From a virus, in the IMG/VR virus record IMGVR_UViG_3300044733_004754: a DNA stretch of 64,000 nt. One strand, 5' to 3'. Below the pieces are notes generated by a model. The model was not told the DNA's origin, made no database searches, and was given only the letters and a program-made list of their open reading frames with translations. The position numbers and the translations under genes were made by a program. Shown here one piece after another: positions 13,469 to 42,600 of the stretch; the first letter of the stretch is position 1, and every line of letters starts with the position of its first letter.

Positions 13469-15256
13469 ATGGCCAATACCAATATTGACTTGGTTGGTTT
13501 AGATTTTACAAGTCTAAAAAACAATCTAAAAACATTCTTAAAGAATAACACATCCTTCAAAGATTTGGATTATGAAGGATCTAATATCAATGTGCTGCTT
13601 GATGTGCTTGCATATAACAGCTACTTAAATGCGTTCTATACAAACATGGTAGCAAGTGAGATGTTTTTAGATAGCGCTCAACTACGCGATAGCATTGTTT
13701 CCCATGCAAAAGAGTTAAACTATGTTCCACGGTCCTTTGTCTCAGCAAAAGCAACAATCGATGTAACAGTGACCCCTGCAGGCAATACATCTTCCGTATT
13801 CATTCCTAAAAATACATCGTTTACATCTCGAGTTGGATCAAACACGTTTACTTTTGTCACAAACGACTCTTATGTTACAGCAGCCAACGGTGCTAGTTTT
13901 GTTCAACGACTGGATTTATATGAAGGGTCTATCAAGACCGAGTCGTTTGTCATTAACTATTCAAACACATCGCAACGATTTGTTCTCTCTAATCCTACAA
14001 TAGACACGGCTTCCTTAGAAGTTGCGGTATATGAGGATAACGGACAGACAACACTAGTTTATACACGTGCAGCAACTCTTTACAACCTTAATGAAACATC
14101 AAGAGTGTTCTTTATACAGGCTGCTCAAAATCAACAATATGAAATTATTTTTGGTGATGGTGTTTTCGGTCGTAAACCGAAGGATGGTTCAACGTTTGTT
14201 GCCAAGTACAGGGCTTGTTCGGGCGAGTTACCGAACGGTGCGCGCGTATTCGATGTAGATGGTCCAATCGATGGACATAGCAACGTTGTTGTTACAACAA
14301 TCGATGAGGCTTCAGGAGGAGCGGTTGCAGAGTCCATTGAATCAATAAGATTCAATGCGCCGCGCTCATTCCAAGCGCAGAATAGAGCCGTTACTGCAAC
14401 TGATTACGAGACGTTACTCAAATCACAATTCTCCGATATACAATCAATAAGCGTGTATGGTGGTGAGGACAGTGACCCGCCCCAGTATGGAAAGGTTTTT
14501 ATTTCAGTCGATGTTGCTCAAGCGGAGGGTGCGCCCGAGTTGCGTAAAAAAGCATACTTTGATTTTATCAAAGATAAAACACCACTTAGTATGCAAGTGA
14601 ATTTTATTGATCCTTTGTTTCTTTATGCTTCGGTTGAAACGACAGTTCAGTTCGATGTTAACATGACGACGAAGACAACGAATGATATTGAAACATTGGT
14701 CAAAGCAGCAATCAGCAACTACAACATTACAAAATTATCTAATTTTAAGAAAACTTTATACTACTCACAATTGGTCAATGCTATTGATAAAGCTGACCCA
14801 AGTATAGTTTCAAATGATACTGTTGTAAAAATGATCGCACGTGTTACACCACCAACGAATGTACCATACCCATTCAGTGTATCCATTAATAATCGAGTTG
14901 TTGCTGAAGAGGGAAAGAAGCTAGAGGTAGATGAAACTCATTATGGACATGGACTAACAAGTTCCTTTTTTACATATGAAGGTAGTAGATGTTCTCTAGT
15001 CGATGATTCGCTAGGAAATGTTCATATAGCTTTGCAAGAGGGTGAAACGATTCGCATCATCAAAAAAGTGGGGACAATCGATTACACCAAAGGCCGAGTT
15101 GTTGTCGAAGAAACATTTGAAGTCAGTGCCTATGAAGGAAATTTCCTTGAGTTGATCTTTAAAACCGTTTCAAAAAATCTCGAAACAAAAAATAATGCCA
15201 TTCTCAGTATTGACAATCTAGATGTTAACGTAACAGCTGTTGGTGTCAAGCAATGA
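13469..15256 (+). CDS. gp6: Baseplate wedge subunit gp6
   Basis: LDF..LK.NLK.FL, D.DYEGS....LLDVLAYN, EMFLDSA.LR.SIVSHAK.LNY.PRS, FGDG.FG, ESI.SI.FNAP..F..QNRAVTA.DY and GGE...PP.YGKV motifs. Confidence 0.95.
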   Translation: MANTNIDLVGLDFTSLKNNLKTFLKNNTSFKDLDYEGSNINVLLDVLAYNSYLNAFYTNMVASEMFLDSAQLRDSIVSHAKELNYVPRSFVSAKATIDVTVTPAGNTSSVFIPKNTSFTSRVGSNTFTFVTNDSYVTAANGASFVQRLDLYEGSIKTESFVINYSNTSQRFVLSNPTIDTASLEVAVYEDNGQTTLVYTRAATLYNLNETSRVFFIQAAQNQQYEIIFGDGVFGRKPKDGSTFVAKYRACSGELPNGARVFDVDGPIDGHSNVVVTTIDEASGGAVAESIESIRFNAPRSFQAQNRAVTATDYETLLKSQFSDIQSISVYGGEDSDPPQYGKVFISVDVAQAEGAPELRKKAYFDFIKDKTPLSMQVNFIDPLFLYASVETTVQFDVNMTTKTTNDIETLVKAAISNYNITKLSNFKKTLYYSQLVNAIDKADPSIVSNDTVVKMIARVTPPTNVPYPFSVSINNRVVAEEGKKLEVDETHYGHGLTSSFFTYEGSRCSLVDDSLGNVHIALQEGETIRIIKKVGTIDYTKGRVVVEETFEVSAYEGNFLELIFKTVSKNLETKNNAILSIDNLDVNVTAVGVKQ

Positions 15257-18200
15257 GACAGATCGAAGAGTTAATATTCCCACTTGTTAAAGCTCAATTT
15301 CCTGACTTCTATCAGGATGAAGGTCCTCGCTTTATTTCTTTTGTTAAGGAATACTATCGATGGATGGAGGCTGAAGGGGAAGCATTAAACGCTTCGCGTA
15401 ACTTACTTGATTATCGAAATATTGATAGTACATCAAGTGATTTCATAAAATATTTTAAGAACAAATACCTGTCCGGCGTACCTCTTTCAACGGAAGCAAA
15501 CACACAGCTCGTTATTAAGCATGCTCTTGATATCTACAAAGCCAAAGGAACAGAACGAGGTGTACAGCTTCTAATTCAGGGACTTTTCAATGAAGAATCA
15601 AGAGTTGTTTTTCCCGGTCAAGATATTTTTAAAACGTCAGACGGCGTCTGGATTAAGCCCACGTACCTCGAGCTGACGGTCAAAGAAAGAACACAAAGTT
15701 TTGTTGGTCAGGAAATTGTAGGTTCACGGAGTGGTGCTAAGGCATTTCTAGAAAGTATTGTAACCAAACGACTTGCAGGCAAGTACCAACAAGTTGCTTA
15801 TCTGAGTAGTGTTAGAGGTAACTTTGAAACCGGCGAGCTCATAACGACGACATCAAACACATCCTTTGAAAACGCGCCTACTGTAATAGGTTCAATGACT
15901 TCACTTACCGTAATCGATGGTGGTGCTAATTTTGCTGTTGGTGATATTTTTGAGGTAACATCAACAAACGGTAAACAAGGCAAAGCACGTGTAACTGAGG
16001 TTTCAAATGAAACCGGACGTGTCACTTTCATATATGTTGATGCATTTACAAGTGGTGGTTGGGGATATAGCATTGACCATGCAAACGTTATCGTATCGGA
16101 TAAAGTCCTAACTCTCACCAACATTGTTAACGCCAATGGGTTGATTACCGACTTCAGTCAATTTGAAACCGTCACACAACCCTTAGCTAATATTGGGTAT
16201 AGTACGGCGAGAGGGAACAATTATCATTTCAATGTTGGTAACATCATAGAGAATTACAATTCTAACGGTGATGTTGTTGCTAACGCTGTTATAGCAGTCA
16301 CAAGCAAAACTACAAACGCCGTTGGATGGATTATTGTAGTGCCCAATGTTGGTAATATAGCCGCTCAAGACACAACATTTGCTGTGAGATCACAAGATCC
16401 CGATGAATCATCGTTTAATCCATCAACGATCGGATTTGCTGAAAATACTTATACATCTGTTTATAGTAAGACATACTCTAATCTATTTACGGGTAGTTTT
16501 TCTCAAGAATTCACTTCGATATACACTTCTGATTATACTGGCGTATATGGTACGGTATACAGTTCTACTTATACACAAGGGTATTCTAGCACATACAGCA
16601 GAGTCTTCACTTCCGATTCTTACCTAGGCAATTACTCTAAAACATTTACGAGCGAAGTATACACAGGTACCTATAGTAGGGTGTTTACAACTAGTGGAAC
16701 AACAAACTTTTCCGGTTCATACCTACAATATTTTATCGTTACAACACCATACACAGGGTCTGCTTATACAACAGCCTTTACCGGTGCATATACAGCTGTA
16801 GGCTTCACAGGCTTATACAATCTGACATACACAGGAAATTATACTAGAACCTTCACCAGCGAATTTCAGGGTACGCTAGTACCTGGTTTTTACACGGGTA
16901 CCTACTCAGGGTCTTATGCTGGATCATATGTGGGGTACTTTACTGGTACACGTGTAACTCCGTTTGGTAATATTCCTTACAGCACAACATATATTAACTA
17001 TTTTCTGGGATCGTATGTAGGTGGGTATCAAGGTGTGTATCAATCCGCGTATCAAAATCCATATAGCGGAGCAACGTTTGCTGCAAATGTAAACTCTTAT
17101 AACTTACCTAATTATGTAAGCAATTTCTCAAGGGCCTATACGGGTGGCTTTATTTCATATCCTGTTTATACGGGCTTGAAATCGTTACCTTATGGTGGTG
17201 TTCCGGGTGTTACAGAAGGTTATGTTGGAGCTGGATATACCGGAGCCTATATTACATCATATTCGTCCATATACAGTGGTGCATATGGTGGTGATTCGTT
17301 CTCGAGAATTTTCACAGGACTGTATCAGCTCGGATCATTCACAGGAAACTTTACCTCAACATTTACCGGTAATTTTTCTGGTTCGTACGGAACAGCATAT
17401 ACAGGCACTTACAGTGATACGTTCACAAATGATTATGTGGGTAGTTTTTCACGAACATTTCAAGGCAACTTCACAACAAGCTACACAACAAGCTACACAG
17501 GATTATACAATGTCTTTTCTGGTGCTTACACGAGCACGTATTCGCAAGCATTTACTGCATTTACAGGTGCATACACAGGATTCACGGGTAGCTATAGTTT
17601 AGCTTTCAGTGGTAATTACAATGCTTTTTCTGGTCAATACCTTAGTTTCTCACTGTCATTTAGTGGATACAGTTCAGCTTTTAGCGGCGTATATAATAAT
17701 TCATTCACCAGTGGGTATGGTGGGTATACAGGCATCTTTACAAGAACTTACACCAGCGCACAAGGAACAGCAAACGGCGTCATAGTTCAATATTTCAGCA
17801 AAGCATATACAGGGTTATATGCAGGTTCTGATTATACAAGTGCTTTCAATGGTTACACGAGAACATTTACCGTAACACTTGCTGGTGCGTTTACAAGTTC
17901 GTATAGTGGTCAATTTACAGGCGCTTACATAGGGTATACAGGAACGTATCTGGCTCGAACATATACGGGTAGCTATGGTGCTTACAGTGGAGCGTATCAA
18001 GACTCACTGTTCACGGGTAGTTATGGATTTTTCACAGGTGCTTTTGGATCAGCCTACACGGGTCTCTTTATAGGTAGCGGTAGCACCCGAATAAACACAT
18101 TAACTGCACATGAATTCAGTAATAATGATATTGTTCGTTACCATGTCATGCCAGGTAATACATACATTCCTGAGCTGTCAATAGGTGCTGCATATTACAT

Positions 18201-20697
18201 AGTAAACGCTGTACCAGGTTCAACGAGCTTATACTTGTCTCATACACCTGGTGGTGCCCCAATATCCCTTACCAGAGGGTCAAACGAAACAGGTCACAGG
18301 CTGATACGTACCTTGGGTACTGCTGTCATTACGTTCTATGGGGATAGGACAGCTACAGGTAATGTTAATGGCTCAAATACATCCACGCTCGTTTACTCCT
18401 TCAATGCACAAACATCTGTGTCAAGTGCTGGCGACACAATAACAATACCGAGCCATCAGCTTGAAAACAATTACGTTATCTCTTACAGTGTCAGTGCAGG
18501 TAACACACAACTCGATGGGCTAATTAATACCACAAAGTACTATGTTGTTAACACAACTGCATCCACTATCCAATTATCTGCTACCAGAGGTGGATCGCCT
18601 TTAGGTATATCAGCAAGCAATAGAAGCGAAAATGGGCATTTCATAACACACACAACAGGATTCGTGGGTGTTGTTGATATATCAGTCAACGGATTCGTTG
18701 CATCAGCTCAAACCTACATTCGTGGGTCGACGAGTAACACAACAGCCTCTGTGGCGAACGTAAGTACAGGATCAGGAGCTGGTTTTAGTATCGGTCTTTT
18801 AACGGATACAGAGAGTGTCCTACTATCACCCGACTTTATTGATGGAAAAAATACAGGTAATGTGAAGTTTAGCGAAATAAAACTTAACGGTATTGGCTCT
18901 AATGTTACCGCTGGTGGATATGGAACGGCAGCTACATTTAATGGTAATACGGATATTACAGAAGGAGCAAATGGTACTGGCGTTTTGTTACCATCACGTG
19001 TTGAATTCAATGCTTTATCAGGTGTTAACAACACGACTAATATTATTACCATTAGTTCGCCAGCTAAACACATCTTTAGTAACAACGAGCAAGTAAACTA
19101 TCTTGTTACACCTGGTAACACGGCTGTTACTGGCCTGGCAAACAACACCAATTATTATATTGTCAATGCAGTTGCAGGATCAACTACGTTACAGTTGTCG
19201 CTTACTTCTGGCGGTTCGCCAATTGACATAACAGCCACTGCCAACGAAGTTGGGCATTCACTTACACGACAGGCCACAACTGGATCAAATAACAGTATAG
19301 CCTTGAGCACAGCTGTCAATTATTTGCCGAACAGTGCTGTGCATTACAGTCTAAGCGCAGCGAACACATCTATCGATGGCCTTACACCTAACACCGTGTA
19401 TTATATCGATCAATCAAATGCAACACATATAACGTTGAAGGATTCACCGACAGGACTACGTATTAATATCCTTAAAGGACCAACCGAATCGGGGCACACG
19501 TTGTTTGGTCCTCTGAGAATAATTACGGGTGCAAACTCAACATACGATAATGTTGGTTCAGGCGAAGAAATATTCCGTGGTCTTGGTTTTATCAAATTCC
19601 CTGGAACAAATCTTGATACGATTCTTCTTGACGCTCTTCGTTTTGACAGTACCACTATAGGATCTATAGCTTCGTTGGTTTCTATTAACCCAGGAGCTGA
19701 TTATAATGTTGATCCGTTTGTAACCGTTGTTGATACGTTTGTTGTTGGATACGACAGTCGTGATTATGTTATGCAAATTAACAATACAGTTGGTGCATTT
19801 GTTGTTGGTGAGCAGATACAACAGTCATATAGCAACGTAGCAACACAACTAACCGTTACAGGATTCACAGGCACAGCTGCAAACGGTGTTGGGACTTCAA
19901 CGTTTGTTATAAATGAGTTTGTATATCAAAGTAATTCAACAGCAAACGTAGCAGCATCTGGATTTGTCGTTGAAGCTGCAATAAGTGCTGGCTCTGGAAC
20001 ATTAAAAATTAAAAATGTAACGGGCACGTTTGTAAATAATGCGCCGTCCTACCCTCTGAAGGGGTTGTCGTCAGGATCAACATCTAATGTTACACTTGTG
20101 ACGCCAACAACACTTGCAACTACTGCTAGGGCACTTGTTAAATCAGCAAACTCATCGGTCCTCAAATTAAAGCGTATCAATTTAGAAAACACCTTCCTCG
20201 ATGGTAATCCGATTATAGGTCGTTCATCCGGTGCAACAGCAAACGTTGTTGGTGTTGTTGAGGATGCAAACGCTGTGCCTGTTGGTTTAAATGCATCAAT
20301 AGAGGCCAACGTTCAAACAGCGAATAATGTTGTGAAAAAACTTGCTGTTGCTGATTCGGGTTTTGGATATCTTGATCGTGAACCAGTTACTTTAACGATG
20401 TCTAACTCAGCGTTCAGCGTGACTGCTGTTGTTGAGCTTGGTAAACAAGGCGTTGGGCAGGGATATTATGGTTCTACAAGAGGATTTTTAAGTGATGATA
20501 AGAAACTGCAGGATGGTGAATTTTATCAGGAATACAGTTATGAAGTACAAACAAAGGTACCGTTTGATAGATATTTCGATGTCTTGAAAAGAGTTACACA
20601 CGTAGCTGGAACAAAAGCATTTGGTAGAGTTATTTCTCTTTCGCTGGCAAACTTAGAAATGACCGCTATAAATACTATCGAAACCTCGAACACTTAA
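15253..20697 (+). CDS. gp7: Baseplate wedge initiator gp7-like, enlarged by a YTG-repeat insert and H..F.N..V.Y...YY.V repeat domains
   Basis: N-terminus QFP.F....GP.FI.F.K.YY, Y..KGT and P..DIFK.SDG; C-terminus G.LS....LQD..FYQEYSYE...H.AG.K.FG; lies between gp6 and gp8. Confidence 0.75.
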   Translation: MRQIEELIFPLVKAQFPDFYQDEGPRFISFVKEYYRWMEAEGEALNASRNLLDYRNIDSTSSDFIKYFKNKYLSGVPLSTEANTQLVIKHALDIYKAKGTERGVQLLIQGLFNEESRVVFPGQDIFKTSDGVWIKPTYLELTVKERTQSFVGQEIVGSRSGAKAFLESIVTKRLAGKYQQVAYLSSVRGNFETGELITTTSNTSFENAPTVIGSMTSLTVIDGGANFAVGDIFEVTSTNGKQGKARVTEVSNETGRVTFIYVDAFTSGGWGYSIDHANVIVSDKVLTLTNIVNANGLITDFSQFETVTQPLANIGYSTARGNNYHFNVGNIIENYNSNGDVVANAVIAVTSKTTNAVGWIIVVPNVGNIAAQDTTFAVRSQDPDESSFNPSTIGFAENTYTSVYSKTYSNLFTGSFSQEFTSIYTSDYTGVYGTVYSSTYTQGYSSTYSRVFTSDSYLGNYSKTFTSEVYTGTYSRVFTTSGTTNFSGSYLQYFIVTTPYTGSAYTTAFTGAYTAVGFTGLYNLTYTGNYTRTFTSEFQGTLVPGFYTGTYSGSYAGSYVGYFTGTRVTPFGNIPYSTTYINYFLGSYVGGYQGVYQSAYQNPYSGATFAANVNSYNLPNYVSNFSRAYTGGFISYPVYTGLKSLPYGGVPGVTEGYVGAGYTGAYITSYSSIYSGAYGGDSFSRIFTGLYQLGSFTGNFTSTFTGNFSGSYGTAYTGTYSDTFTNDYVGSFSRTFQGNFTTSYTTSYTGLYNVFSGAYTSTYSQAFTAFTGAYTGFTGSYSLAFSGNYNAFSGQYLSFSLSFSGYSSAFSGVYNNSFTSGYGGYTGIFTRTYTSAQGTANGVIVQYFSKAYTGLYAGSDYTSAFNGYTRTFTVTLAGAFTSSYSGQFTGAYIGYTGTYLARTYTGSYGAYSGAYQDSLFTGSYGFFTGAFGSAYTGLFIGSGSTRINTLTAHEFSNNDIVRYHVMPGNTYIPELSIGAAYYIVNAVPGSTSLYLSHTPGGAPISLTRGSNETGHRLIRTLGTAVITFYGDRTATGNVNGSNTSTLVYSFNAQTSVSSAGDTITIPSHQLENNYVISYSVSAGNTQLDGLINTTKYYVVNTTASTIQLSATRGGSPLGISASNRSENGHFITHTTGFVGVVDISVNGFVASAQTYIRGSTSNTTASVANVSTGSGAGFSIGLLTDTESVLLSPDFIDGKNTGNVKFSEIKLNGIGSNVTAGGYGTAATFNGNTDITEGANGTGVLLPSRVEFNALSGVNNTTNIITISSPAKHIFSNNEQVNYLVTPGNTAVTGLANNTNYYIVNAVAGSTTLQLSLTSGGSPIDITATANEVGHSLTRQATTGSNNSIALSTAVNYLPNSAVHYSLSAANTSIDGLTPNTVYYIDQSNATHITLKDSPTGLRINILKGPTESGHTLFGPLRIITGANSTYDNVGSGEEIFRGLGFIKFPGTNLDTILLDALRFDSTTIGSIASLVSINPGADYNVDPFVTVVDTFVVGYDSRDYVMQINNTVGAFVVGEQIQQSYSNVATQLTVTGFTGTAANGVGTSTFVINEFVYQSNSTANVAASGFVVEAAISAGSGTLKIKNVTGTFVNNAPSYPLKGLSSGSTSNVTLVTPTTLATTARALVKSANSSVLKLKRINLENTFLDGNPIIGRSSGATANVVGVVEDANAVPVGLNASIEANVQTANNVVKKLAVADSGFGYLDREPVTLTMSNSAFSVTAVVELGKQGVGQGYYGSTRGFLSDDKKLQDGEFYQEYSYEVQTKVPFDRYFDVLKRVTHVAGTKAFGRVISLSLANLEMTAINTIETSNT
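16447..18070 (+). repeat. Coding tetrapeptide repeat tract ([YF]-[TS]-G-x) within gp7
   Basis: Translation shows about 540 aa of YTGx/FTGx/YSRx units. Confidence 0.85.
20667..20674 (+). promoter_or_regulatory. Late promoter TATAAATA upstream of gp8
   Basis: Exact consensus about 30 nt before the gp8 ATG. Confidence 0.75.
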
Positions 20698-31334: not shown

Positions 31335-33128
31335 ATGGCTGATACGTCAAGCAATGTTCAATTCAAGGTTGAAAATGGTCTCCTTGTTTTAGGTACCGCA
31401 AATGTTGCTGGACCAGCAGTGTTCAATGCCAACGTTGACATTAACGGGTCATATCTTTCTGTTACGGCAAATCTTCAAAGTAGCCTGGTTCCATTAAATA
31501 ACACCTATTCACTTGGTAACGCAACATCGCGCTGGGCGTTGAGCGCAATGGGCGGTAGTTTTGTTGACAGTGTTTCAGTTACTAACACCTTATCAACAGG
31601 TAATACAACAATAACCGGTTTCGTCAACGTATCATCCACAGCAAATATTGGTGGTGCAGCGACATTGAGAGGCACGCTAACGGTAAATGGTGCTGTAACT
31701 ATTGCCAATACTCTAGCTACAGGTAATACATCCATAACAGGTACACTGGCTGCTAATAATACAACTATAACAGGGTTTGTTAATGTATCATCAACAGCAA
31801 ATATCGGTGGTGCCACGTCGTTAAGAAGTACGTTGGTTGTAAACGGTGCTGTAACTATTGCCAATACTCTAGCTACAGGTAATACATCCATAACAGGGTT
31901 TGCAACAGTATCCACAACCCTTACTGTTACAGGAGCGACAACACTTTCCAATACTCTTTCTGTAACAGGAAACACCACTCTTTCGAACACGCTAGCTGTT
32001 ACTGGTAATACATCTCTCTCTAATAGTTTAATCGTAACTGGTAATACGACCTTATCAAATACACTGGCTGTAACTGGTAACGTCGTTCTATCGAACACAT
32101 TAGCTGTAACTGGTAATGTGACGTTTTCTAATACGTTAGCGGTTACAGGTAATACCACTTTTTCAAACACTATTAATATTGCCGGTATCACAACCTTACG
32201 TAGCGCTGCCAATGTAGTTGGAGCAGCTGCAGCCTTCAATGCATTGACGGGTGTTGCAAACACGACGGAGTTCATCACCACAACGGCAGCACATGGCTTT
32301 AGTAATGGTGATCTGGTTCAGTACATTGTATCGACTGGTAATACAGCTGTAACAGGTCTTGCAAATGGAACAAGTTACTACGTGGTTGAGGCGAATTCAA
32401 CTGCATTCAAGTTATCCTCGTCGTATGGTGGATCAGTCATAAATCTAACCGCCAGTGTTAGTGAAGTTGGACATACTCTTACACCCCAACGAATTGTTCT
32501 ATCAACGAATGGTAATATTGATAGTTCGTTAGGATTAGCTAACGTTGGCTCTTTACGTGTATTAGGGACCGCTGTTGTAAACGGTGCAGTAACGCTAGCT
32601 AGTACGTTAGGTGTTACTGGAGCAGCAACATTTTCAAACACAATATCCGTAACAGGTAATGCGACCCTGTCAAACACGCTTGCTGTTACTGGTGCAACGA
32701 CACTATCAAATACACTTGTTGTTTCGGGTAACGCAACATTTGACACAGATTTGCTTTTCATTGATGCAGTAAACAACAGAATTGGATTCAAGAACACATC
32801 ACCAAGCTCAACCGATCTAATAACTATATCAGGTAATACTGTACTTACTGGTTTAAGTGCAGCTATTCGTTTCCTATCGTCAAACGCAACACATAATGCG
32901 TCTATTACAATAGCCGGTAACACAACAAATACACGTACGACGTTTACTACATACGAAGCGAACGCAACAGCAAGTGATGGTGGTTTTATTTTCCAGGCAG
33001 CAAACGGAACAACAACCACATCTGTTCTAGCTTTTAATCAAACTGAGCTAAAGTATAAAACTGGTAATGTTGCACATGCAGGAAATTTTGGGATTTACGA
33101 TGTAAGCGGTACGCGGCTAGGACCATGA
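31335..33128 (+). CDS. Tail fibre-like protein with 12-aa repeats and one gp7-type repeat domain
   Basis: FKVENGL N-terminus, VP..NTYSLG..T.RW, SNTLAVTGN repeats, HGFSNGDLVQY...YYVV domain and FID..NNRIG. Confidence 0.65.
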   Translation: MADTSSNVQFKVENGLLVLGTANVAGPAVFNANVDINGSYLSVTANLQSSLVPLNNTYSLGNATSRWALSAMGGSFVDSVSVTNTLSTGNTTITGFVNVSSTANIGGAATLRGTLTVNGAVTIANTLATGNTSITGTLAANNTTITGFVNVSSTANIGGATSLRSTLVVNGAVTIANTLATGNTSITGFATVSTTLTVTGATTLSNTLSVTGNTTLSNTLAVTGNTSLSNSLIVTGNTTLSNTLAVTGNVVLSNTLAVTGNVTFSNTLAVTGNTTFSNTINIAGITTLRSAANVVGAAAAFNALTGVANTTEFITTTAAHGFSNGDLVQYIVSTGNTAVTGLANGTSYYVVEANSTAFKLSSSYGGSVINLTASVSEVGHTLTPQRIVLSTNGNIDSSLGLANVGSLRVLGTAVVNGAVTLASTLGVTGAATFSNTISVTGNATLSNTLAVTGATTLSNTLVVSGNATFDTDLLFIDAVNNRIGFKNTSPSSTDLITISGNTVLTGLSAAIRFLSSNATHNASITIAGNTTNTRTTFTTYEANATASDGGFIFQAANGTTTTSVLAFNQTELKYKTGNVAHAGNFGIYDVSGTRLGP

Positions 33129-33129
33129 A

Positions 33130-36100
33130 ATGGCAAGACCACTTAGAGCAAGATATGTTACAGCAAGTACAAGTGACGGTGTTCAGGAGATGTCGGATAG
33201 CGACATCAATGACCTTGTTATTCCTAGGATAACCAACTTATTTTACGCTGCATCAAATACATCTGGCTACGGTAACAAACTCGAACTAAGAACTACACCA
33301 CCAACTTGGAATTATGTTACTGGTGGGACTGTTCTTGATGTGTTTCCAACAGCTTTACCGCCCATCGGGACACATCCAGTAACTTCTTCGTCAACAACAT
33401 ACACGTTGTACCAAAATCTTGACACTGCATTGACAACAAACTTTGATCTTATAACCAAACCTGTTAAAACAGAGGCAAGTGGTGGTGTTCAAAAGATTCA
33501 ACAGTTTTCAAACAATGAAATCAGAGATGATATTCATAGTAAAGTTATTGCTGAAATATCTGTTGGGGCACAAGGAGCTTACTGGCTTGGAACTTCACCA
33601 CCAGGAACAGGTACGTGGATTGTTGTATCCTCAATAAACGATACTTTTGTTAACTCGACAAGCAATAGCACGCAAACAACCACATATAATTTGTATCAGC
33701 GCTCTACGAATAGTGGGTATGGTACAAAGAGGCCTTTAAAAGGTACAGCGAACGCTCTTACAGAGATGTCCGATGCTGAAATTGACACAATGACAGCGGC
33801 TATACGTGATTGTATTGCGGCTGGTATTGGTAGATATCAAATATCGACTACATCACCAACGCCTGGTACTTGGGTAGCTCGTGGTTCTTTCACAGATACA
33901 CAGAATGGTATAGAGGATCAATCATATTCCGGTAGTTACTTGGGTACTTTTACAGGTGCGTTCAGTGGCATTTATAATCAAGCATTCACAGGAGCTTATC
34001 AGGGACAGTTTAATCGGGCATTTACAGGTAACTTTATTGATACTTCTAAATTTACTGGTGCATTTGCAGGTGTGTATCAGCAAAATTTTACAGGTATCTA
34101 TTCACGTATTTTTACTCGTGATACAAACACCTCGTTTACGGGTGTTTATCAGAACACATATACAGGTAATTACACAGGTTTATTTGCGGGTGCATACTCA
34201 CAGGTATTCTCCGGTGGATATTTGGGAAGTTATCAAGGCTCTACTTTTACTGGCGGCTTCAACCAGACTTTTGCTGGTACGTATGTGGGAACATTTACAG
34301 GACCATATTCAGGAAATTTCCAGGGCGTAACATATTCAGGCGGATTCAATCAAAATTTTACTGGCGTATATGTAGGGGCGTTTTCAAGACCATATGCTGG
34401 GAACTTCCAAGGTATAACATATTCGGGTGGATATAATCAGACTTTTGCCGGTACGTATGTGGGAACATTCACGGGACCATATTCTGGTTCTTATCAGGGT
34501 ACAATATATCCTGGTGGGTATAATCAGACGTTTGCTGGAACATACAATCAAACGTTTACAGCTCAATACTCAGGGGATTTCCAGGGCGTAACATATTCAG
34601 GCGGTTACAATCAGACTTTCATAGGTGTATACGCAGGATCATTTTCAAGACCATATGCTGGGAATTTTCAAGGTATAACATATTCAGGTAGCTACAATCA
34701 AACCTTTGCCGGTACGTATAATCAAAGTTTTACCGGTGGATTTGTAAATAATTATGCCGGGACCTACTCACAGGCGTTCAGTGCCACGTACGCTGGTGGA
34801 TATGTTGGGGACTTTTCAAGAGCATATACAGGTTCATATCAGAACACATATTCAGGGGCATATGCAAATACGTGGTCTCGAATATTTTCAAGAGCGTGGA
34901 CGGGATCCTATACTGCTGCATATACGGGCGATTATACTGGTGCATATACGAAGGCCTTTGCGCGACTTTTCACAGGAACATATACAGGCGCTTGGATTGG
35001 TAACTACACACGTGGCTTTGTAGGCCTATATGGTTCAACATTCTCAAGAGGCTTCTCCTCCTTTTTCGTGGCCGCGTACACTTCAACGTATGCAGGAACT
35101 TATACAGGTAACTACACACGAGCTTTCACACCATCGTTTCAAGGATCGTATGCACTTCCTTCTGTAGGCTCCTACGATGGGGATTACATAGCAGGTGGAT
35201 TTACTGGGCCTTTCAACATCACGTATTATACAGGTACATATCAGGGCACATATAACAGCTTTTTCACGGGTACGTATGAAGGTGCTTTCTCACGTATATT
35301 TGCCGGTAGTTATGCTGGTACATACCAAGACCCCTATACAATAACATCATTTACGGGGCCATTTGCTGGTACAGGTTATTTTACAGGATCGTACGTTGGC
35401 AATTACCAAGGTAATTTTGGCGCTAGTTATCAAACGACATTCCAGGGATTTTATTCGGGTTTATATACGCAGGCCTTTTTGAGAGCGTGGACGAACGTAT
35501 TTGTATCAAGCTGGACATCACTGTATGCTGGTACATACTCAAGAGCATTTACAGGTGAATATCTCCAAAACTACATTGGATCGTATGAAGGAACATTCAG
35601 TAGAGAGTTCTCAGCCCCATATCAGGGATCATATGAGAATAGTTGGTCAAGAATATTTACTGGTGATTGGACGGGGGGTTTTAGTACTAATTACACTGGT
35701 GGGTATGTTAATTTTTGGACAGGGTCTTACACGAGTACATATTCCAGGGTTTTTTCGGGAGCTTATACTGGTGTAATTACATACACGGGTGGGTTTGTTG
35801 GGTTATATGCAAATACGTGGGCAGGCAGTTACACAGGACAATTTACTGGTGGCTATACTAGGGCGTTCACGGGTGACTATACGGCTACTTGGTCAGGATC
35901 CTATACCGGTGCGTACTCACAAAACTTTACCGGTTCGTATACAGGGACCTTTACTGGTGGATATACGGCTACGTGGACCGGTACCTACTCAAGAGTATTC
36001 ACAGGACAGTTTACAGGCGGATATACCGCGGTATTTACTGGTGCTTATACATCAACCTGGACAGGTTCATATGTAGGTTCATACTCACAAAACTTTTCTG

Positions 36101-36678
36101 GTAACTATGTAGGAACATTTACGGGTGCGTATACATCCACTTGGACAGGTTCTTACACCGGATCGTATTCACAAAACTTTACTGGTATATACACAGGCAC
36201 GTTCACAGGGGCATACACGGCTACGTGGACGGGTGTATATTCTGGTGCGTATTCACGAAATTTTACAGGCGCATATACGGGTACATTCAGCGGCAACTAC
36301 ACAGCTACCTTTGCTGGGACGTACACGGGCGGTTATACACGAGCATTTTCTGGTACATACGCTGGTAACTACACGGGCGGGTTTATTGGTCAGTGGACAG
36401 GAGTATACAGCCGTATATTCACTGGTTTATATACCGGCGCGTTCACAGGCGTTTTTATTGGTAACTTTACAGGTAGTTATGTTGGGACATATTCACGTAT
36501 ATTTACGGGTGCATATACTGGTTTGTTCACTGGCTCATATTCTGGAGCATATACGGGTGCTTTCAGTGGTAACTATGCTAATAATTTTACACGATTATTT
36601 ACAGGGGCATACTCGGGTCTAACCGTCACCGGTACAACGACGACGACTACATATACATTATGGGTTAGAACAGCTTGA
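33130..36678 (+). CDS. YTG-repeat filament/fibre protein A (1182 aa)
   Basis: Three ~95-aa N-terminal repeats (RPL...QEMS..[DE]I...GTW), about 900 aa of [YFW]-x-G-x repeats, C-terminus TLWVRTA. Confidence 0.7.
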   Translation: MARPLRARYVTASTSDGVQEMSDSDINDLVIPRITNLFYAASNTSGYGNKLELRTTPPTWNYVTGGTVLDVFPTALPPIGTHPVTSSSTTYTLYQNLDTALTTNFDLITKPVKTEASGGVQKIQQFSNNEIRDDIHSKVIAEISVGAQGAYWLGTSPPGTGTWIVVSSINDTFVNSTSNSTQTTTYNLYQRSTNSGYGTKRPLKGTANALTEMSDAEIDTMTAAIRDCIAAGIGRYQISTTSPTPGTWVARGSFTDTQNGIEDQSYSGSYLGTFTGAFSGIYNQAFTGAYQGQFNRAFTGNFIDTSKFTGAFAGVYQQNFTGIYSRIFTRDTNTSFTGVYQNTYTGNYTGLFAGAYSQVFSGGYLGSYQGSTFTGGFNQTFAGTYVGTFTGPYSGNFQGVTYSGGFNQNFTGVYVGAFSRPYAGNFQGITYSGGYNQTFAGTYVGTFTGPYSGSYQGTIYPGGYNQTFAGTYNQTFTAQYSGDFQGVTYSGGYNQTFIGVYAGSFSRPYAGNFQGITYSGSYNQTFAGTYNQSFTGGFVNNYAGTYSQAFSATYAGGYVGDFSRAYTGSYQNTYSGAYANTWSRIFSRAWTGSYTAAYTGDYTGAYTKAFARLFTGTYTGAWIGNYTRGFVGLYGSTFSRGFSSFFVAAYTSTYAGTYTGNYTRAFTPSFQGSYALPSVGSYDGDYIAGGFTGPFNITYYTGTYQGTYNSFFTGTYEGAFSRIFAGSYAGTYQDPYTITSFTGPFAGTGYFTGSYVGNYQGNFGASYQTTFQGFYSGLYTQAFLRAWTNVFVSSWTSLYAGTYSRAFTGEYLQNYIGSYEGTFSREFSAPYQGSYENSWSRIFTGDWTGGFSTNYTGGYVNFWTGSYTSTYSRVFSGAYTGVITYTGGFVGLYANTWAGSYTGQFTGGYTRAFTGDYTATWSGSYTGAYSQNFTGSYTGTFTGGYTATWTGTYSRVFTGQFTGGYTAVFTGAYTSTWTGSYVGSYSQNFSGNYVGTFTGAYTSTWTGSYTGSYSQNFTGIYTGTFTGAYTATWTGVYSGAYSRNFTGAYTGTFSGNYTATFAGTYTGGYTRAFSGTYAGNYTGGFIGQWTGVYSRIFTGLYTGAFTGVFIGNFTGSYVGTYSRIFTGAYTGLFTGSYSGAYTGAFSGNYANNFTRLFTGAYSGLTVTGTTTTTTYTLWVRTA
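33920..36615 (+). repeat. Coding tetrapeptide tract with 87-bp x6 (34234-34755) and 84-bp x6 (35878-36381) super-repeats
   Basis: Gln codons at 34234, 34321, 34408, 34495, 34582, 34669; Trp codons at 35890, 35974, 36058, 36142, 36226. Confidence 0.9.
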
Positions 36679-36684
36679 GAAAAA

Positions 36685-39600
36685 ATGCCACTTCGTCCGT
36701 TATACTATAATACATCGTTATCCGGATTACAGGAGATGTCCAATACGGACATCGATGGATATATTTCAAATGTAATAGGTTCTGATTTTGCTTCGACAGA
36801 AGATATTGGATCTCTCATCGTGCAGGATCCAGGTGATCCGGTTCCTGCAAATTCTACCTCCATTGGTACATGGGTTGATACACGCTACGATCAACAAATA
36901 GGTGACCATCCTGTTTCAGAAGCGAATCTTGTTTATTCAAACACAACCATTTATCAAAGATTGGGTGGTGGACCATTAACGGACCCTTCAATGGTACGAC
37001 CTATTTGCTGGAATGATACGCTTGATGGCGTACAGCAAATGGCGAATACGGATATTGACACAACCATTATTGCGAAGGCCGTTTCTTATATTGTCAATGG
37101 TGGTGTCGGTTCATATGTCCTGCAGCCGTCTGCACCAGTAACTGGTACGTGGGTTGTGAGAGGGCGATTGCAGAATACTGAACGTCCATACTTTGCCAAT
37201 GAAACATTTCTCTGGCAAAAAACGTCTGAAAGTCCAAGCGGCTCTATAAAGCCTTTGAAATGGAGTACTAATGCTTTACGTGAGATGTCAAATAACGACA
37301 TCAAAACCTTGACACATAGAGCAAGAAATTACATCGCCAATACAGGTATAGGCACCTATCAATTATCCACAACCACCCCGTCATCAGGCGGAACGTGGGT
37401 TGAGGCGGGTACGGGATTCAATGATACCCGTCAAGAAATAAGACCTCAAACTTATAATGCTCAAGTGTATACAGCAACTTTTTCTGGTGTATATACACGG
37501 GCTTTTGTTGGCAAGTATCAAGGTAGTTTTACTGGTTTGTATGGGATACCATACACACGTGAATTCACAGGTACATTCGCAGATACGTTTACCGGGGCTT
37601 TCAATCAGCAATTCACCGGAGCTTTTTCTAGCGGATATGCAACAACGTACACGGGTACGTTTAATCAGCAGTTCACTGGACAATTCACTGGCGCTTATAC
37701 TGGTGGTTATACAGGAACATTTACCGGTGCTTACACGGGCGGATATACAGGTGCATTCACTGGTGTATATTCGGCGCCTTATGTGGGTAGCTTCACTGGT
37801 GTATATGTAGGGACGTTTAATCAGCAGTTTACTGGCGCGTTCAGTGGTGTTTATCTAGGGACATATCAACAAAATTTCACTGGTGATTATGTTGGTGGCT
37901 TTACAGGTGCATTCAGCGGTGCTTATGCTCAAGCATTTACGGGTGCATATAGTTCAATCTTTACAGCAGCATATAGCGGTTCGTTTACAGGCCAGTTTTC
38001 GGGTTTATACACAGGCGCTTTCACGGGTGTATATGTAGGAAGTTACGTGGGGAAATTCACAGGCGCATATACGGCTATCTATAGTAGATTGTTTACAGGG
38101 GACTACACAGGTATTTATACTGGTGCATATAGTCAGAACTTCACCGGTGCCTTTACTGGTCAATTCAATCAAGTGTTTACAGGTACGTTCGCTGGTGGTT
38201 ATGCAGGAACGTTTAACCAAGTATTTACGGGCACATTTGCAGGTACTTACAGTAGCCTGTTCTCTGCAATATACACAGGCAACTACACTGGTATATACAG
38301 CCAAGCGTTTACAGGTGCATTCACGGGTATTTTTAATCAGGCTTTCACAGGTAACTTTGTTGGTAATTATGTTGGTAACTATCAGCAAACATTTACGGGA
38401 GCTTTTGCAGGAACATACAGCAGTTTATTCACGGGAAGCTACACAGGTAACTACACAGGATTATATAACCAAGTATTTACAGGAACGTTTGCTGGAACAT
38501 ATAGCCAAGTATTTTCGGGTAGCTATACCGGTAATTACACGGGATTATATAACCAAGTTTTTACAGGTACTTTTGCGGGAACATATAGTAGATTATTCAC
38601 AGGAAGCTATACAGGCAATTACACAGGCATATACAATCAAATATTCACAGGTACCTTCGCAGGCACTTACAGTAGATTATTCACGGGAAGCTATACAGGT
38701 AATTACACTGGCATATACAATCAAGTATTTACAGGTGCGTTTGTAGGAAATTATGCCGGGTCGTTTACTGGTTCGTTTGCTGGTGGATACACAGGTGCTT
38801 TTTCCGGTTCATACACAGGCGCTTACACAGGAATTTATGCAGGTTCATATGTAGGAAATTACCAGGGAAACTTTACTGGTTCATTTGCAGGAACATATAG
38901 TAGATTATTTATAGGTTCGTATTCGGGTGGGTACACACGTGCATTCACAGGAGCTTACACAGGAATTTATTCGGGCGGGTACGTAGGCTCCTTCACGGGT
39001 TTGTACTCCGGTGGGTATGTAGGTTCTTTCACAGGTATTTACTCAGGCGGATACACGAGAGCTTTCTCGGGATCATACACTGGATCATATACTGGAACAT
39101 ACGCCGGAACGTACACAGGTTTGTATTCAGGTGGGTATGTCGGATCGTTTACGGGCATATACTCAGGCGGATACACGAGGGCTTTCTCGGGATCATACAC
39201 TGGATCATATACTGGAACATACGCCGGAACGTATACAGGCATATATGCTGGTGGATATGTGGGGTATTTTACGGGCATATACTCAGGCGGATACACGAGA
39301 GCTTTCTCGGGATCATACACTGGATCATATACTGGAACATACGTAGGAACGTATACAGGCATATATGCTGGTGGGTATGTGGGGTATTTTACTGGAATAT
39401 ACTCTGGTGGGTATACAAGAGCTTTCTCAGGATCATATACTGGATCATATACTGGAACATACGCCGGAACGTATACGGGTTTGTATTCAGGTGGTTATGT
39501 CGGATACTTTACAGGCATATATTCAGGTGGTTATGTTGGATACTTTACAGGAATATATGGTGGCACGTACAGTAGGTTATTCACAGGTGCCTACGCGGGT

Positions 39601-42600
39601 GGATATATTGGGTACTTCACAGGAATATATGGCGGTACGTATAGTAGATTATTCACAGGCGCCTACGCGGGTGGGTATGTTGGTTACTTTACAGGAATAT
39701 ATGGTGGTACATATAGTAGATTATTTACAGGTACATACTCTGGAAGTTATCAAGGCAATTTCACGGGGCTCTATTCAGGTACATATAGTAGATTATTTAC
39801 TGGCAGCTATACAGGATTATATTCCGGAAACTTTCAGGGTAACTTTACAGGTGCTTTTGCTGGTACGTATAGTCGATTGTTTACGGGTTTATATACAGGA
39901 TCATACTCTCGTGGGTTCACGCGGGTCTTCATCGGGACTTATCAAAGAGGGTTCATAGGGTCATATGCAGGTAGCTTCAATAATACATTCACACCAACAT
40001 TTGCTGGAGCTTACGCTCGGGCCTTTATTGGAGTTTATGCAGGATCGTACCAAAACCCATTCACTGGAATATATTTCACTGGTTATTACACTGGTTTTTA
40101 CATTAATTTTTTTACAGGAACTTATCAGGGAGCGTTCACGCGTTTGTTCACAGGGGCATATACAGGCGTTTATCAAGATCCTTACGTCATTTTAACTTTT
40201 ACGGGGCCATTTGCTGGTCCAGGTTTTTTCGCGGGTACCTATGGGGGTTCTTATGTAGGTGTGTTTGGCGCCTCATATAGTAGGCTATTTACAGGCTTTT
40301 ATTCAGGATCATATACTGGTGATTTTACGGGAGCGTTTGCTCGGGTGTTCACAGCAACATGGACAGGGTCCTATGCAGGATCTTATCAAGGCAACTTTAC
40401 AGGAAGTTTTGCGGGTACGTATAGTAGATTGTTTACTGGGCAGTATTCTGGCGCTTATGCAGGATCCTATCAGGGTAACTTCACAGGTACTTTTGCTGGT
40501 ACGTATAGTAGATTATTTACGGGTACGTACTCGGGCAACTACCAAGGCAACTTCTCCGGGATATATGCAGGATCATATGCACAGACGTTTACTGGAATAT
40601 ACTCCGGCAATTACCAAGGCAACTTTTCCGGAACATATGCGGGTGCATATGCACAGACTTTCACAGGAATATATTCCGGCAATTATCAAGGCAACTTCTC
40701 AGGAACATATGCAGGAGCATATGCACAAACATTTACAGGTGCATATGCAGGGGCATATGCTCAAACATTTACAGGTACTTACGCAGGCGGATATACAGGC
40801 TATTATTCTGGCGCCTATGCTGGTACATATTCGGGTGCATTCAATCAAACATTTACAGGTGCATATGCAGGGGCATATGCTCAAACATTTACAGGTACTT
40901 ACGCAGGCGGATATACAGGCTATTATTCTGGGGCATATGCTGGAACGTATTCGGGCTCATTTAACCAGACATTTACGGGTGCATTTGCAGGGGCATATGC
41001 TCAAACATTTACAGGTACTTACGCAGGCGGATATACAGGCTATTATTCTGGCGCTTATGCTGGTACATACTCAGGAGCATTTAACCAGACATTTACAGGT
41101 GCATTCGCCGGTGTATATCAACAAACCTTTACGGGTACGTATTCAGGTGGATATATTGGATACTATTCTGGCGCTTATGCTGGTACATACTCAGGAGCAT
41201 TTAACCAGACATTTACAGGTGCATTCGCTGGTGTATATCAACAAACATTTACCGGTTCTTACTCGGGTACATATCAGCAAACGTTTACAGGTGGGTATGC
41301 AGGGACATATTCAGGGTCTTATAATCAGACATTTACAGGCGCTTTTTTAGGTAGTTATGAAAGTTCTTTCACTGGATTTTATTCAGGTGCCTATAGTAGA
41401 TTATTCACTGGTAGCTACACAGGTGCGTATACTGGAATATATGTGGGTTCCTATGTTGGTACATTTAATCAAACATTTACGGGTAGTTTTGCAGGCACAT
41501 ATTCAAGAGTATTTTCGGGATTATATTCCGGTGGCTACACGGGTGCATTTACTGGAATATATGCCGGTGCTTATGTTGGCAACTTCCAAGGCAATTTCAC
41601 AGGTAACTACTCTGGTGGCTACACAGGTGCATTTACTGGAATATATGCTGGTGCTTATGTTGGCAACTTCCAAGGCAACTTCACAGGAAATTATTCAGGT
41701 GGATATACAGGAACATTTTCGGGAATATATGCTGGTAGTTATGTAGGAGGGTATCAGGGCAACTTCACAGGAAATTATTCAGGCGGATATACCGGCACAT
41801 TTACTGGTGTATATGCAGGCGCTTATGTTGGAAGCTATCAAGGGAATTTCACTGGAAGTTTTATTGGTGGCTACACACGTGTGTTCTCGGGCACATATTC
41901 CGGTGTATATACGGGTGTTTACACAGGTCAATTTACAGGGATATACTCAACGTTATTTACAGGTGCATTCAGTGGGATATACGCAGGCGGATATGGTGGG
42001 AGTTTTCTAGGAAACTTCTCAGGGCTGTATTCGGGCGGATACACAGGAGCGTTTACAGGTATTTACACAGGTATCTACACAGGTGGGTATACTGGCACCT
42101 TTACTGGAGCATACTCAACACAGTTTACAGGTACATTTACAGGTGGATATGCAGGCACGTATGCCGGTGCCTACCAAGGCAACTTCACAGGCGTGTTCCA
42201 AGGTACGTACCAACAATCATTTACAGGTAATTACACCGGCATATACAGCCAAGCATTTAGTGGTACATATAACCAAGCATTCACAAGAAACTTTACTTTT
42301 GATTATACCGGTACGTTTTCGGGACCATATGTAGGATTTTTCACTGGAAGTTATTCACAAGTCTTCAGTAGATTTTTTACAGGATCATATACGGGTCAGT
42401 TCACAGGCGCTTATTCGGGCATATACAGTCAAGCCTTTACAGGTGCGTTCTCTGGCAATTATACAGGTATCTACAGTCAAGCATTCACAGGTGCTTACAC
42501 GGGTATATTCAATCAAACATTCACTGGCGATTTCGTAGGAAAATTTAATCAAACCTTCAGCGGTATTTTCATTGGTTCCTATAATCAACAATTCACTGGT

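What the first reader, a model, noticed from the sequence alone, without database searches (positions are those of the whole stretch)
16400..19520. A YTG module is also plugged into baseplate gp7, at a loop that elsewhere takes a nested domain
Seen: gp7 carries several copies of a unit FN......I...H.[FL].N...V.Y....GNT...[GE]L.....YY.VN......L.LS...GG.P.......E.GH. In the first copy about 540 aa of YTG repeats, including a YQNPY motif like those in A and B, lie between SSFNPSTIG and TRINTLTAHEFSNND. Later, ATFNGNTDI... is followed by a complete extra copy (VEFNALSG...GHSLTRQ) before the unit resumes (NNSIALSTAVNYLPNSAVHY). One more copy occurs in the 597-aa fibre (~32230-32485). Known: T4 baseplates contain six gp7 copies. 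Inference: this loop is an insertion hot-spot, and the baseplate may display six shorter YTG filaments.
Basis: partly seen in the sequence, partly recalled or inferred. Interest (0 to 1): 0.72.

Follow-up and report, generated by a model that had tools for sequence, protein, structure and literature searches.

The report
Repeat filament module inside baseplate gp7
The baseplate wedge protein gp7 of an uncultured T4-like phage carries a 550-residue tract of four-residue Tyr/Phe-Thr/Ser-Gly-x repeats spliced into one loop of a small decoration domain; close relatives that lack the tract, or carry shorter versions, show it is a self-contained add-on of unknown structure, probably a projecting filament.

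Summary
ORF 15253-20697 (1814 aa) lies between gp6 and gp8 homologues and is a gp7-type wedge protein. It carries four copies of a ~90-aa beta-barrel unit, and a fifth copy sits in the 597-aa fibre.

Residues 395-944 are a strict period-4 [YF][TS]Gx tract. The tract lies between the first strand (..SFNPSTIG) and the rest of unit 1.

- P0026 is 94% identical to P0025 and differs by one clean 254-aa indel, which is the tract. In P0026 the flanks read as one contiguous unit.
- Tract sizes of about 140, 255, 380 and 550 aa occur among relatives.
- A 173-aa sub-block (aa 760-932) is present or absent between 92%-identical proteins.
- The "unit inside a unit" at 1225-1420 has an un-nested counterpart in P0037.

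Misassembly is excluded. The exact protein is on 7 contigs, and a 96%-identical relative has no indels and mostly synonymous changes.

"Hot-spot" is only partly right. The tract was gained once at this loop, another clade carries it at the C-terminus, and a second loop can also take a nested unit.

The tract's structure is unresolved, because AF2 failed on it. An out-and-back projection is inferred from topology and has only weak direct support.

This scan had already reported the same repeat in neighbouring genes A and B.

The parts
15253..20697 (+). gp7-type baseplate wedge gene, 1814 aa. Its ATG overlaps the stop codon of gp6.
   Evidence: It lies between the gp6 homologue (13469-15256) and the gp8 homologue (20706-22469). 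PHROG 17744 'baseplate wedge subunit' matches at E 7e-161. hhalign matches it to T4 gp7 at 93% probability.
15253..16407 (+). Conserved N-terminal wedge region, aa 1-385.
   Evidence: It is 38-99% identical across 120 homologues. Pfam PF23786 matches aa 12-150 at 19.4 bits, below the cut-off. The family profile positions 7-199 align to T4 gp7 residues 644-828.
16408..16434 (+). First strand (..SFNPSTIG) of unit 1, aa 386-394.
   Evidence: F388 and N389 are invariant in 34 homologues. This strand is contiguous with the rest of the unit in the insert-less homologues P0026, P0028, P0035 and P0037.
16435..18084 (+). YTG tract, aa 395-944: about 130 [YF][TS]Gx tetrapeptide repeats.
   Evidence: Period 4 is shown. 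It is not a DNA-level tandem array. The aromatic position is kept in 96% of aligned cells, against 30% identity at position +3. The tract is absent as one clean block in P0026.
16435..17529 (+). Tract sub-module 1, aa 395-759.
   Evidence: It is collinear with P0003 and P0006, which end the tract here. Phase breaks are mirror-ordered: arms 400-478 and 670-748, centre 574. None of 300 block shuffles reaches the observed score.
17530..18048 (+). Tract sub-module 2, aa 760-932, an optional block.
   Evidence: It is a single clean indel against P0003 (92% identical overall). P0004 and P0006 differ by the same-sized block (174 aa), and P0011 and P0009 by 146 aa. A non-repeat element, QGTANGVIVQ, lies at its centre.
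18085..18312 (+). Remainder of unit 1, aa 945-1020.
   Evidence: Unit HMM, E 6e-37.
18382..18657 (+). Unit 2, contiguous, aa 1044-1135.
   Evidence: HMM match. AF2 pLDDT is about 90, and the fold is a small beta-barrel.
18658..18918 (+). Conserved middle segment of gp7, aa 1136-1222.
   Evidence: It is conserved in homologues with and without units. AF2 gives low confidence here.
18925..18987 (+). First strand and loop of the outer unit 3, aa 1225-1245 (..ATFNGNTDITEGANGTG..).
   Evidence: It aligns with VAFNANSAVVGGTGAG of the un-nested unit of P0037. AF2 predicts a strand at model residues 186-190.
18988..19278 (+). Inner unit, nested in unit 3, aa 1246-1342.
   Evidence: HMM match. AF2 pLDDT is 82-92. 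VIA-align Z is 8.2 to the UBA1 FCCH barrel.
19279..19512 (+). Remainder of the outer unit 3, aa 1343-1420.
   Evidence: HMM match. It is collinear with P0037 aa 603-676.
19513..20697 (+). Conserved C-terminal gp7 region, aa 1421-1814, plus the stop codon.
   Evidence: It is conserved in all homologues and matched by phiM12, Cr30 and DLP6 gp7.
32220..32498 (+). Fifth copy of the unit, inside the 597-aa fibre (ORF 31335-33128), aa 296-388.
   Evidence: HMM E 1e-25. It sits between 11-residue fibre repeats.
33130..36678 (+). Protein A, 1182 aa, with the same repeat at aa 243-1180.
36685..43113 (+). Protein B, 2142 aa, with the same repeat at aa 239-2125.

Best explanation
This is a real gp7-type baseplate wedge protein. 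Its conserved core is decorated with four small beta-barrel units of about 90 aa each. A self-contained 550-residue [YF][TS]Gx tetrapeptide-repeat tract is spliced into the loop between strand 1 and strand 2 of the first unit. A whole extra unit sits in the same loop of the third unit. These points are shown. In tract-free relatives the host loop is only a few residues long, so the two ends of the tract must lie next to each other. The tract is therefore most likely a projection that leaves the barrel and returns to it. It would be built of two out-and-back sub-modules (aa 395-759 and 760-932) that can be gained or lost separately. This step is inferred. A plausible pairing is an antiparallel ribbon in which YTGx faces itself as Y-G, T-T, G-Y and x-x. 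With one gp7 per wedge, the baseplate would carry six such projections. Their likeliest role is extra, length-tunable contact with the host surface, alongside the giant fibres A and B that use the same repeat. The role is inferred and has not been tested.
For: gp7 identity: the gene lies between gp6 and gp8, PHROG 17744 matches at 7e-161, and hhalign matches T4 gp7 at 93%. A real and selected coding tract: a 96%-identical relative has no indels, with 170 synonymous and 32 non-synonymous codon changes. The exact protein is on 7 contigs. The aromatic position is kept in 96% of aligned cells. Loop insertion: insert-less homologues are contiguous across the site, and P0025 and P0026, 94% identical, differ by one clean 254-aa indel. 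Modularity: tracts of about 140, 255, 380 and 550 aa occur, and the 173-aa block 760-932 is a clean indel in three sub-lineages. Nested unit: P0037 is the un-nested form. AF2 gives pLDDT 80-93 for the units, with the FN strand inside the barrel. Out-and-back topology: no super-period beyond 4 argues against a solenoid. Phase breaks are mirror-ordered around residue 574, close to the midpoint 577 of sub-module 1, and 0 of 300 shuffles reach the score. A non-repeat element lies at the centre of sub-module 2. In A, B and many IMG/VR relatives the same repeat also lies between a base domain and a conserved closing strand. Stoichiometry: (gp6)2-(gp7)1 per wedge (PMC6300606).
Against: AF2 gave no usable model of the tract (mean pLDDT 36), so no fold is shown. 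The mirror signal is significant only in the window's protein and its close relative P0004. It is absent in P0007, P0011, P0015, the 255-aa tracts and sub-module 2. The irregular region (aa 563-660) is not centred on sub-module 1. In another clade the tract is a C-terminal extension, where nothing forces its ends together. No functional data exist. Tract-free relatives are evidently viable, so the tract is dispensable. I had no model coordinates, so I did not see that strand 1225-1229 packs into the outer unit 3.
Confidence: 0.6

Rival explanations
1. The tract is a flexible, low-complexity loop rich in aromatic residues and glycine, like the [G/S]Y[G/S] segments of FUS-type proteins. It would act as a sticky or entropic bristle, not as a defined filament.
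For: AF2 gives pLDDT 36. The composition is T, Y, G and S at about 15% each, with almost no charged residues. The share of non-synonymous changes is higher than in the rest of the gene, 13 of 34 against 19 of 168. The length varies freely from 140 to 550 aa. The language-model recognition score is low.
Against: The strict four-residue phase is kept over hundreds of residues, and the aromatic position is kept in 96% of aligned cells in relatives only 46-50% identical in the tract. Indels are clean blocks, not gradual drift. The window's protein shows a mirror order of phase breaks.
Confidence: 0.22
2. The gp7 tract is a docking site. It pairs repeat-to-repeat with the YTG shafts of fibres A and B and so anchors them to the baseplate.
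For: The two IMG/VR records whose gp7 carries the tract also encode A- and B-type proteins. Three records without the tract have no match to A. The same repeat occurs in only three genes of the window.
Against: Distant phages encode short A-type YTG proteins while their gp7 has no tract, so such fibres attach without it. The three tract-free records are distant relatives, so the co-occurrence is not independent evidence.
Confidence: 0.12
3. The tract is a single-chain beta-solenoid, a stack of coils, that happens to bring its ends together.
For: Short-period repeats often form solenoids, for example pentapeptide and hexapeptide repeats (my own knowledge).
Against: The autocorrelation decays over multiples of 4 with no coil-length super-period. 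Frequent shifts of plus or minus one residue would break a fixed coil. The ends of a solenoid lie at opposite poles, and there is no non-repeat linker long enough to return to a loop of 2-4 residues.
Confidence: 0.05
4. The tract is an assembly artefact or is not translated in this frame.
For: Low-complexity repeats are prone to assembly errors.
Against: The identical 1814-aa protein is on 7 contigs from three sources. A relative with 215 nucleotide differences has the same length and mostly synonymous changes. About 30 homologues carry the tract at the same site. There is no DNA-level tandem array.
Confidence: 0.01

Closest known systems
T4 gp7 and gp7-type 'baseplate wedge initiator' proteins of environmental T4-like phages (phiM12, Cr30, DLP6, cyanophage Bellamy)
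   Same: The gene sits between gp6 and gp8. A profile match to T4 gp7 exists. The N- and C-terminal regions are conserved with phiM12, Cr30 and DLP6 gp7. Strings of the same small barrels occur in cyanophage gp7 models in BFVD.
   Different: phiM12 (1007 aa), Cr30 (767 aa) and DLP6 (1288 aa) gp7 have neither units nor a tract. The part that matches T4 gp7 residues 644-828 is at the N-terminus here, so the order of domains differs from T4. No described gp7 that I found carries a tetrapeptide-repeat tract.
Fibres A and B of the same phage (33130-36678, 36685-43113) and their short relatives in IMG/VR
   Same: They carry the same [YF][TS]Gx repeat. In each case the tract lies between a host domain and that domain's closing strand, and tract length varies widely.
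   Different: The host domain is different: a ~95-aa base module there, a beta-barrel unit of gp7 here. The irregular elements of gp7 do not align with those of A or B. The gp7 tract is shorter and has many more phase breaks.
Small beta-barrels of the EF-Tu domain 2 / UBA1 FCCH type, used as decoration or inserted domains in phage proteins (phi92 endosialidase, tail tube and tail tip proteins)
   Same: The units match these barrels: 9mc4_A Z 8.2, rmsd 2.6 over 81 residues; 4hiz_A Z 6.6; 9n71_B Z 6.8; EF-Tu domain 2 Z 5.7.
   Different: There is no sequence similarity, no Pfam family, and the Z-scores are in the range where only a common arrangement may be shared. A shared fold says nothing about function.
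Needle domain of T4 long tail fibre protein gp37 (my own knowledge; not tested by structure here)
   Same: The chain runs out and comes back, so that both ends of the shaft lie at the same pole.
   Different: gp37 is a trimer with His-x-His iron sites. The gp7 tract has no histidine at all, has a four-residue period, and sits in a protein present once per wedge.

Membership tests
gp7-type baseplate wedge protein (T4 gp7 / TssG lineage) | Gene position between gp6 and gp8 homologues in a baseplate module | tested here: met
   gp48, gp53, gp5, gp25, gp6, this ORF and gp8 lie in that order. phiM12, Cr30 and DLP6 have the same order.
gp7-type baseplate wedge protein (T4 gp7 / TssG lineage) | Profile match to a curated wedge family | tested here: inconclusive
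   Pfam PF23786 scores 19.4 bits against a cut-off of 27 for the window's protein. Many homologues carry PF23786 in the precomputed table. PHROG 17744 matches at E 7e-161.
gp7-type baseplate wedge protein (T4 gp7 / TssG lineage) | Homology to T4 gp7 itself | tested here: met
   hhalign of an 18-sequence family alignment against T4 gp7 gives probability 93% and E 2.8e-7. Family positions 7-199 align to T4 residues 644-828. A sequence profile against PDB chains found nothing.
EF-Tu domain 2 / FCCH-like small beta-barrel (fold level only) | Closed barrel of about 90 aa that superposes on known members | tested here: inconclusive
   The best Z is 8.2 (rmsd 2.6, 81 residues aligned) and many members score Z 5-7. 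Foldseek against PDB gives no hit below E 0.001.
Pentapeptide, hexapeptide or collagen-type short-period repeats | Period of 5, 6 or 3 residues with the family's consensus | tested here: not met
   The period is 4: autocorrelation is 0.58 at lag 4 and negative at lags 3, 5 and 6. There is no Pfam repeat family.
T4 gp37-type needle | His-x-His metal-binding repeats in a trimeric out-and-back shaft | tested here: not met
   No histidine occurs in aa 395-944. Oligomeric state cannot be tested with these tools.
YTG-tract proteins of this phage group (A/B type) | A [YF][TS]Gx tract lying inside a host domain, with the host's strand resuming after it | tested here: met
   In gp7 the unit resumes at aa 945. 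In A, B and their IMG/VR relatives a closing strand Y.LW[VK]R.A follows the tract.

The most novel reading that the evidence does not exclude
The [YF][TS]Gx tract is a new, portable, single-chain filament fold, a long out-and-back ribbon. Phages can splice it into loops or ends of unrelated structural proteins (fibre base, gp7 barrel, gp7 C-terminus) and lengthen or shorten it in blocks. That would give a baseplate six extra adjustable feelers.
Probability: 0.4. Interest if true: 0.8.

Novelty: new variant of a known kind. Interest (0 to 1): 0.6.

Why it matters
Decoration of phage structural proteins by inserted domains is well known. Here the insert is an undescribed four-residue repeat of hundreds of residues, and nature supplies matched pairs of proteins with and without it (P0025/P0026 and P0001/P0003). 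Those pairs make the module directly testable. One can express the host barrel with tracts of 0, 140, 255 or 550 residues and ask what the repeat folds into. The finding also shows that the repeat seen in the two giant fibres next door is a portable module and not a peculiarity of those fibres. In addition, gp7 of environmental T4-like phages turns out to be a scaffold that carries from 0 to 9 barrels in the gp7 homologues examined, some nested. That bears on how host range evolves in uncultured phages.

Tried and rejected
- AF2 of aa 370-1030 with a 34-row alignment gave mean pLDDT 36 and is unusable for the tract.
- A plain mirror count of aromatic positions is uninformative, because long perfect repeats mirror trivially.
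- The refined mirror test with block shuffles is positive only for P0001 and P0004. It is negative for five other tract types and for sub-module 2.
- Sequence searches of the units against PDB and of the family profile against PDB found nothing.
- Pfam has no family for the units or for the A/B base domains.
- Foldseek against PDB gave no hit below E 0.001.
- The ESM Atlas gave only unnamed viral clusters with scores below 0.9.
- BLAST of the tract's irregular elements against A and B found only generic repeat matches, so the shared 'YQNPY' is a motif resemblance and not homology.
- Four literature searches found no description of such a repeat or of gp7 insertions.
- Megablast of 10 kb against the isolate phage collection found no match.
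I therefore could not check whether the phages of P0026 and P0037 still encode fibres A and B.
- I could not read model coordinates, so the packing of strand 1225-1229 into the outer unit 3 rests on the un-nested homologue and not on the model.

Full report
**What is there**

The finding lies inside one ORF, 15253-20697 on the + strand, 1814 aa. Its ATG overlaps the stop codon of the gene before it.
- The upstream gene is a gp6 homologue (Pfam Gp6-like and Baseplate_J; PHROG 219).
- The downstream gene is a gp8 homologue (Pfam Phage-Gp8).
- Further upstream lie gp48-, gp53-, gp5- and gp25-type genes.
- The ORF matches PHROG 17744 'baseplate wedge subunit' at E 7e-161. It matches Pfam PF23786 only weakly, at 19.4 bits against a cut-off of 27.
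- An hhalign comparison of an 18-sequence family alignment with T4 gp7 gives 93% probability. Family positions 7-199 align to T4 residues 644-828, so the conserved part is N-terminal here and the domain order differs from T4.
- The closest isolates are Sinorhizobium phage phiM12, Caulobacter phage Cr30 and Stenotrophomonas phage DLP6. Their gp7 (1007, 767 and 1288 aa) matches only the two ends of this protein.

An HMM built from the units finds four copies in gp7 (aa 945-1020, 1061-1134, 1265-1340, 1346-1419). It also finds, independently, one copy in the 597-aa fibre (E 1e-25).

Residues 395-944 are a strict four-residue repeat:
- Aromatic autocorrelation is 0.58 at lag 4 and negative at lags 1-3.
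- Eighty-six of 131 aromatic spacings are exactly 4.
- The consensus is [YF][TS]Gx.
- There is no histidine in the tract and almost no charged residues.

At DNA level the tract is not a tandem array. Only gp7, A (33130-36678) and B (36685-43113) carry such tracts in the window. The 'YQNPY' link to A and B is only a short motif resemblance.

**Not an artefact**
- The nearest held virus record encodes a gp7 of identical length. It has 215 nucleotide differences, no indel, and 170 synonymous against 32 non-synonymous codon changes.
- The exact 1814-aa protein is recorded on 7 contigs from three sources.
- Across ten homologues the aromatic position of the repeat stays aromatic in 96% of aligned cells, while position +3 is only 30% identical.

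**The flanks are one domain**

A search with the N-terminal 390 residues returned 120 homologues of 1000-2056 aa. They form a natural series.
- Insert-less members read ...SFNASLVG-PSLITTTAAHTFSNN... without interruption.
- Others carry tracts of about 140 aa (P0032), about 255 aa (for example P0012-P0025), about 380 aa (P0003, P0006, P0009, P0010) or about 550 aa, always at that spot.
- P0025 and P0026 are 94% identical over their whole length and differ by a single clean 254-aa indel, which is the tract.
- F388 and N389 are invariant.

AF2 of aa 1040-1430 (mean pLDDT 72; 85-93 in the units) places the FN strand as the first strand of each contiguous unit. The units superpose on small beta-barrels:
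- UBA1 FCCH: Z 8.2, rmsd 2.6 over 81 residues.
- Phage tail-tube decoration (9n71_B): Z 6.8.
- phi92 endosialidase barrel: Z 6.6.
- EF-Tu domain 2: Z 5.7.

In BFVD the best matches are gp7-type proteins of uncultured phages and of cyanophage Bellamy. A profile of the unit finds 4550 representative clusters, with up to 27 copies per protein. Pfam has no name for it.

**The nested unit**

In the window..ATFNGNTDITEGANGTG.. (from aa 1227) is followed by a complete unit (aa 1246-1342) and then by ..NNSIALSTAVNY.. (from aa 1346). P0037 has the same outer unit un-nested: VAFNANSAVVGGTGAG-TNNVITISSAADY.... The same strand 1 to strand 2 loop therefore hosts the tract in unit 1 and a whole unit in unit 3. 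I could not read model coordinates, so this rests on the homologue and not on seeing the strand pack.

**Is it a hot-spot?**

Only in part.
- On a tree of the N-terminal region all loop-inserted tracts fall in one clade (support 98). That clade contains two insert-less members (P0026 and P0037). This implies one gain, two losses and at least three changes between the 380-aa and 550-aa forms.
- A separate clade (P0053-P0066, and P0073) carries the repeat as a C-terminal extension of up to about 780 aa.
- In P0039, P0041 and P0042 a whole unit is nested in a different loop, the GNT loop.

**Internal structure of the tract**
- P0001 and P0003 are 92% identical and differ by one clean 173-aa block, aa 760-932. 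The same-sized block distinguishes P0004 from P0006, and a 146-aa block distinguishes P0011 from P0009.
- The tract is thus two sub-modules, aa 395-759 and aa 760-932.
- A non-repeat element, QGTANGVIVQ, lies at the centre of the second.
- In the first, runs of in-phase repeats are mirror-ordered: 56, 12 and 24 residues from one end, and 60, 12 and 20 from the other.
- The best antiparallel register pairs 400-478 with 670-748 around residue 574. The midpoint of the sub-module is 577. The score is 40, against 29.4 +/- 2.4 in 300 block shuffles, and none reaches it.
- This signal is confined to P0001 and its close relative P0004. It is absent in the other tract types and in sub-module 2, so it is weak support.
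- AF2 of aa 370-1030 failed, with pLDDT 36.

**How it most likely works**

Shown: the tract is a dispensable, self-contained insert, and its two ends must meet at a loop of a few residues.

Inferred: it leaves the barrel and returns as one or two out-and-back projections.
- The lack of any super-period argues against a solenoid.
- A YTGx strand paired antiparallel with itself gives Y-G, T-T, G-Y and x-x neighbours. That would put Tyr over Gly on one face. This is my own reasoning.
- With (gp6)2-(gp7)1 per wedge (PMC6300606) there would be six projections per baseplate.
- As a fully extended ribbon, sub-module 1 could reach about 60 nm. This is an upper bound.

The likeliest role is additional, length-tunable contact with the host surface.

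A docking role for fibres A and B is less likely. The two IMG/VR records with the gp7 tract also have A and B. However, distant phages with short A-type YTG proteins have gp7 without any tract.

**Relation to earlier notes of this scan**

Three earlier reports describe A and B as out-and-back fibres with the tract inserted in a base domain. I reached the same reading of A and B from the sequence before seeing them. I also confirmed the conserved closing strand in IMG/VR relatives. These are not independent evidence for gp7.

**Verdict**

The central inference (loop insertion, with the flanks forming one domain) is strongly supported by natural variants. 'Hot-spot' and 'six filaments' are only partly supported. 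The repeat itself remains structurally unexplained and is, as far as I could find, undescribed.

Noticed in passing
P0053-P0066 and P0073 (homologues): A separate clade of gp7 homologues carries the same [YF][TS]Gx repeat as a C-terminal extension of about 400-780 aa after the conserved ...HVAGT+AFGKV end. It is not in the unit loop.
   Followed up: partly
P0041 aa 385-568 (also P0039 and P0042): A complete unit is nested inside another unit at a second site, the GNT loop (..VIYQIPTVTD[unit]GTALTGLSNN..). The barrel therefore tolerates inserts in at least two loops.
   Followed up: partly
window 15253-15850 compared with T4 gp7 (L006): The N-terminal ~200 aa of this gp7 family align to T4 gp7 residues 644-828, not to its N-terminus. 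This suggests a different order of conserved and peripheral parts than in T4.
   Followed up: no
window 16435-18084 compared with L004: Between the window and its 96%-identical relative, the tract has fewer changed codons (34 of 550) than the N-terminal region (62 of 385). Its non-synonymous share is much higher (13 of 34 against 5 of 62).
   Followed up: no
window 29254-31326 and 31335-33128: Two fibre-like ORFs (690 and 597 aa) are built of 11-residue repeats (..TLSNTLAVTGN..). The second has a barrel unit spliced into the middle of the repeat shaft.
   Followed up: partly
P0129-P0274: The ~90-aa barrel unit has no Pfam family, yet it occurs in 4550 representative clusters. It reaches 27 copies per protein and occurs in proteins of up to 7951 aa. 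Several of the best hits are also gp7-type wedge proteins.
   Followed up: partly
IMG/VR loci L046-L077: Many short relatives of protein A (about 400-850 aa) have the same plan: a base domain, a YTG tract of 80-600 aa, and a conserved closing strand (..Y.FWKR.A or ..YLWV+TA). Three such records have gp7 genes of 1218-2426 aa with no tract.
   Followed up: partly
window 22480-26493: A 1337-aa DUF4815 / VrlC-like protein follows gp8, as in phiM12, Cr30 and DLP6.
   Followed up: no
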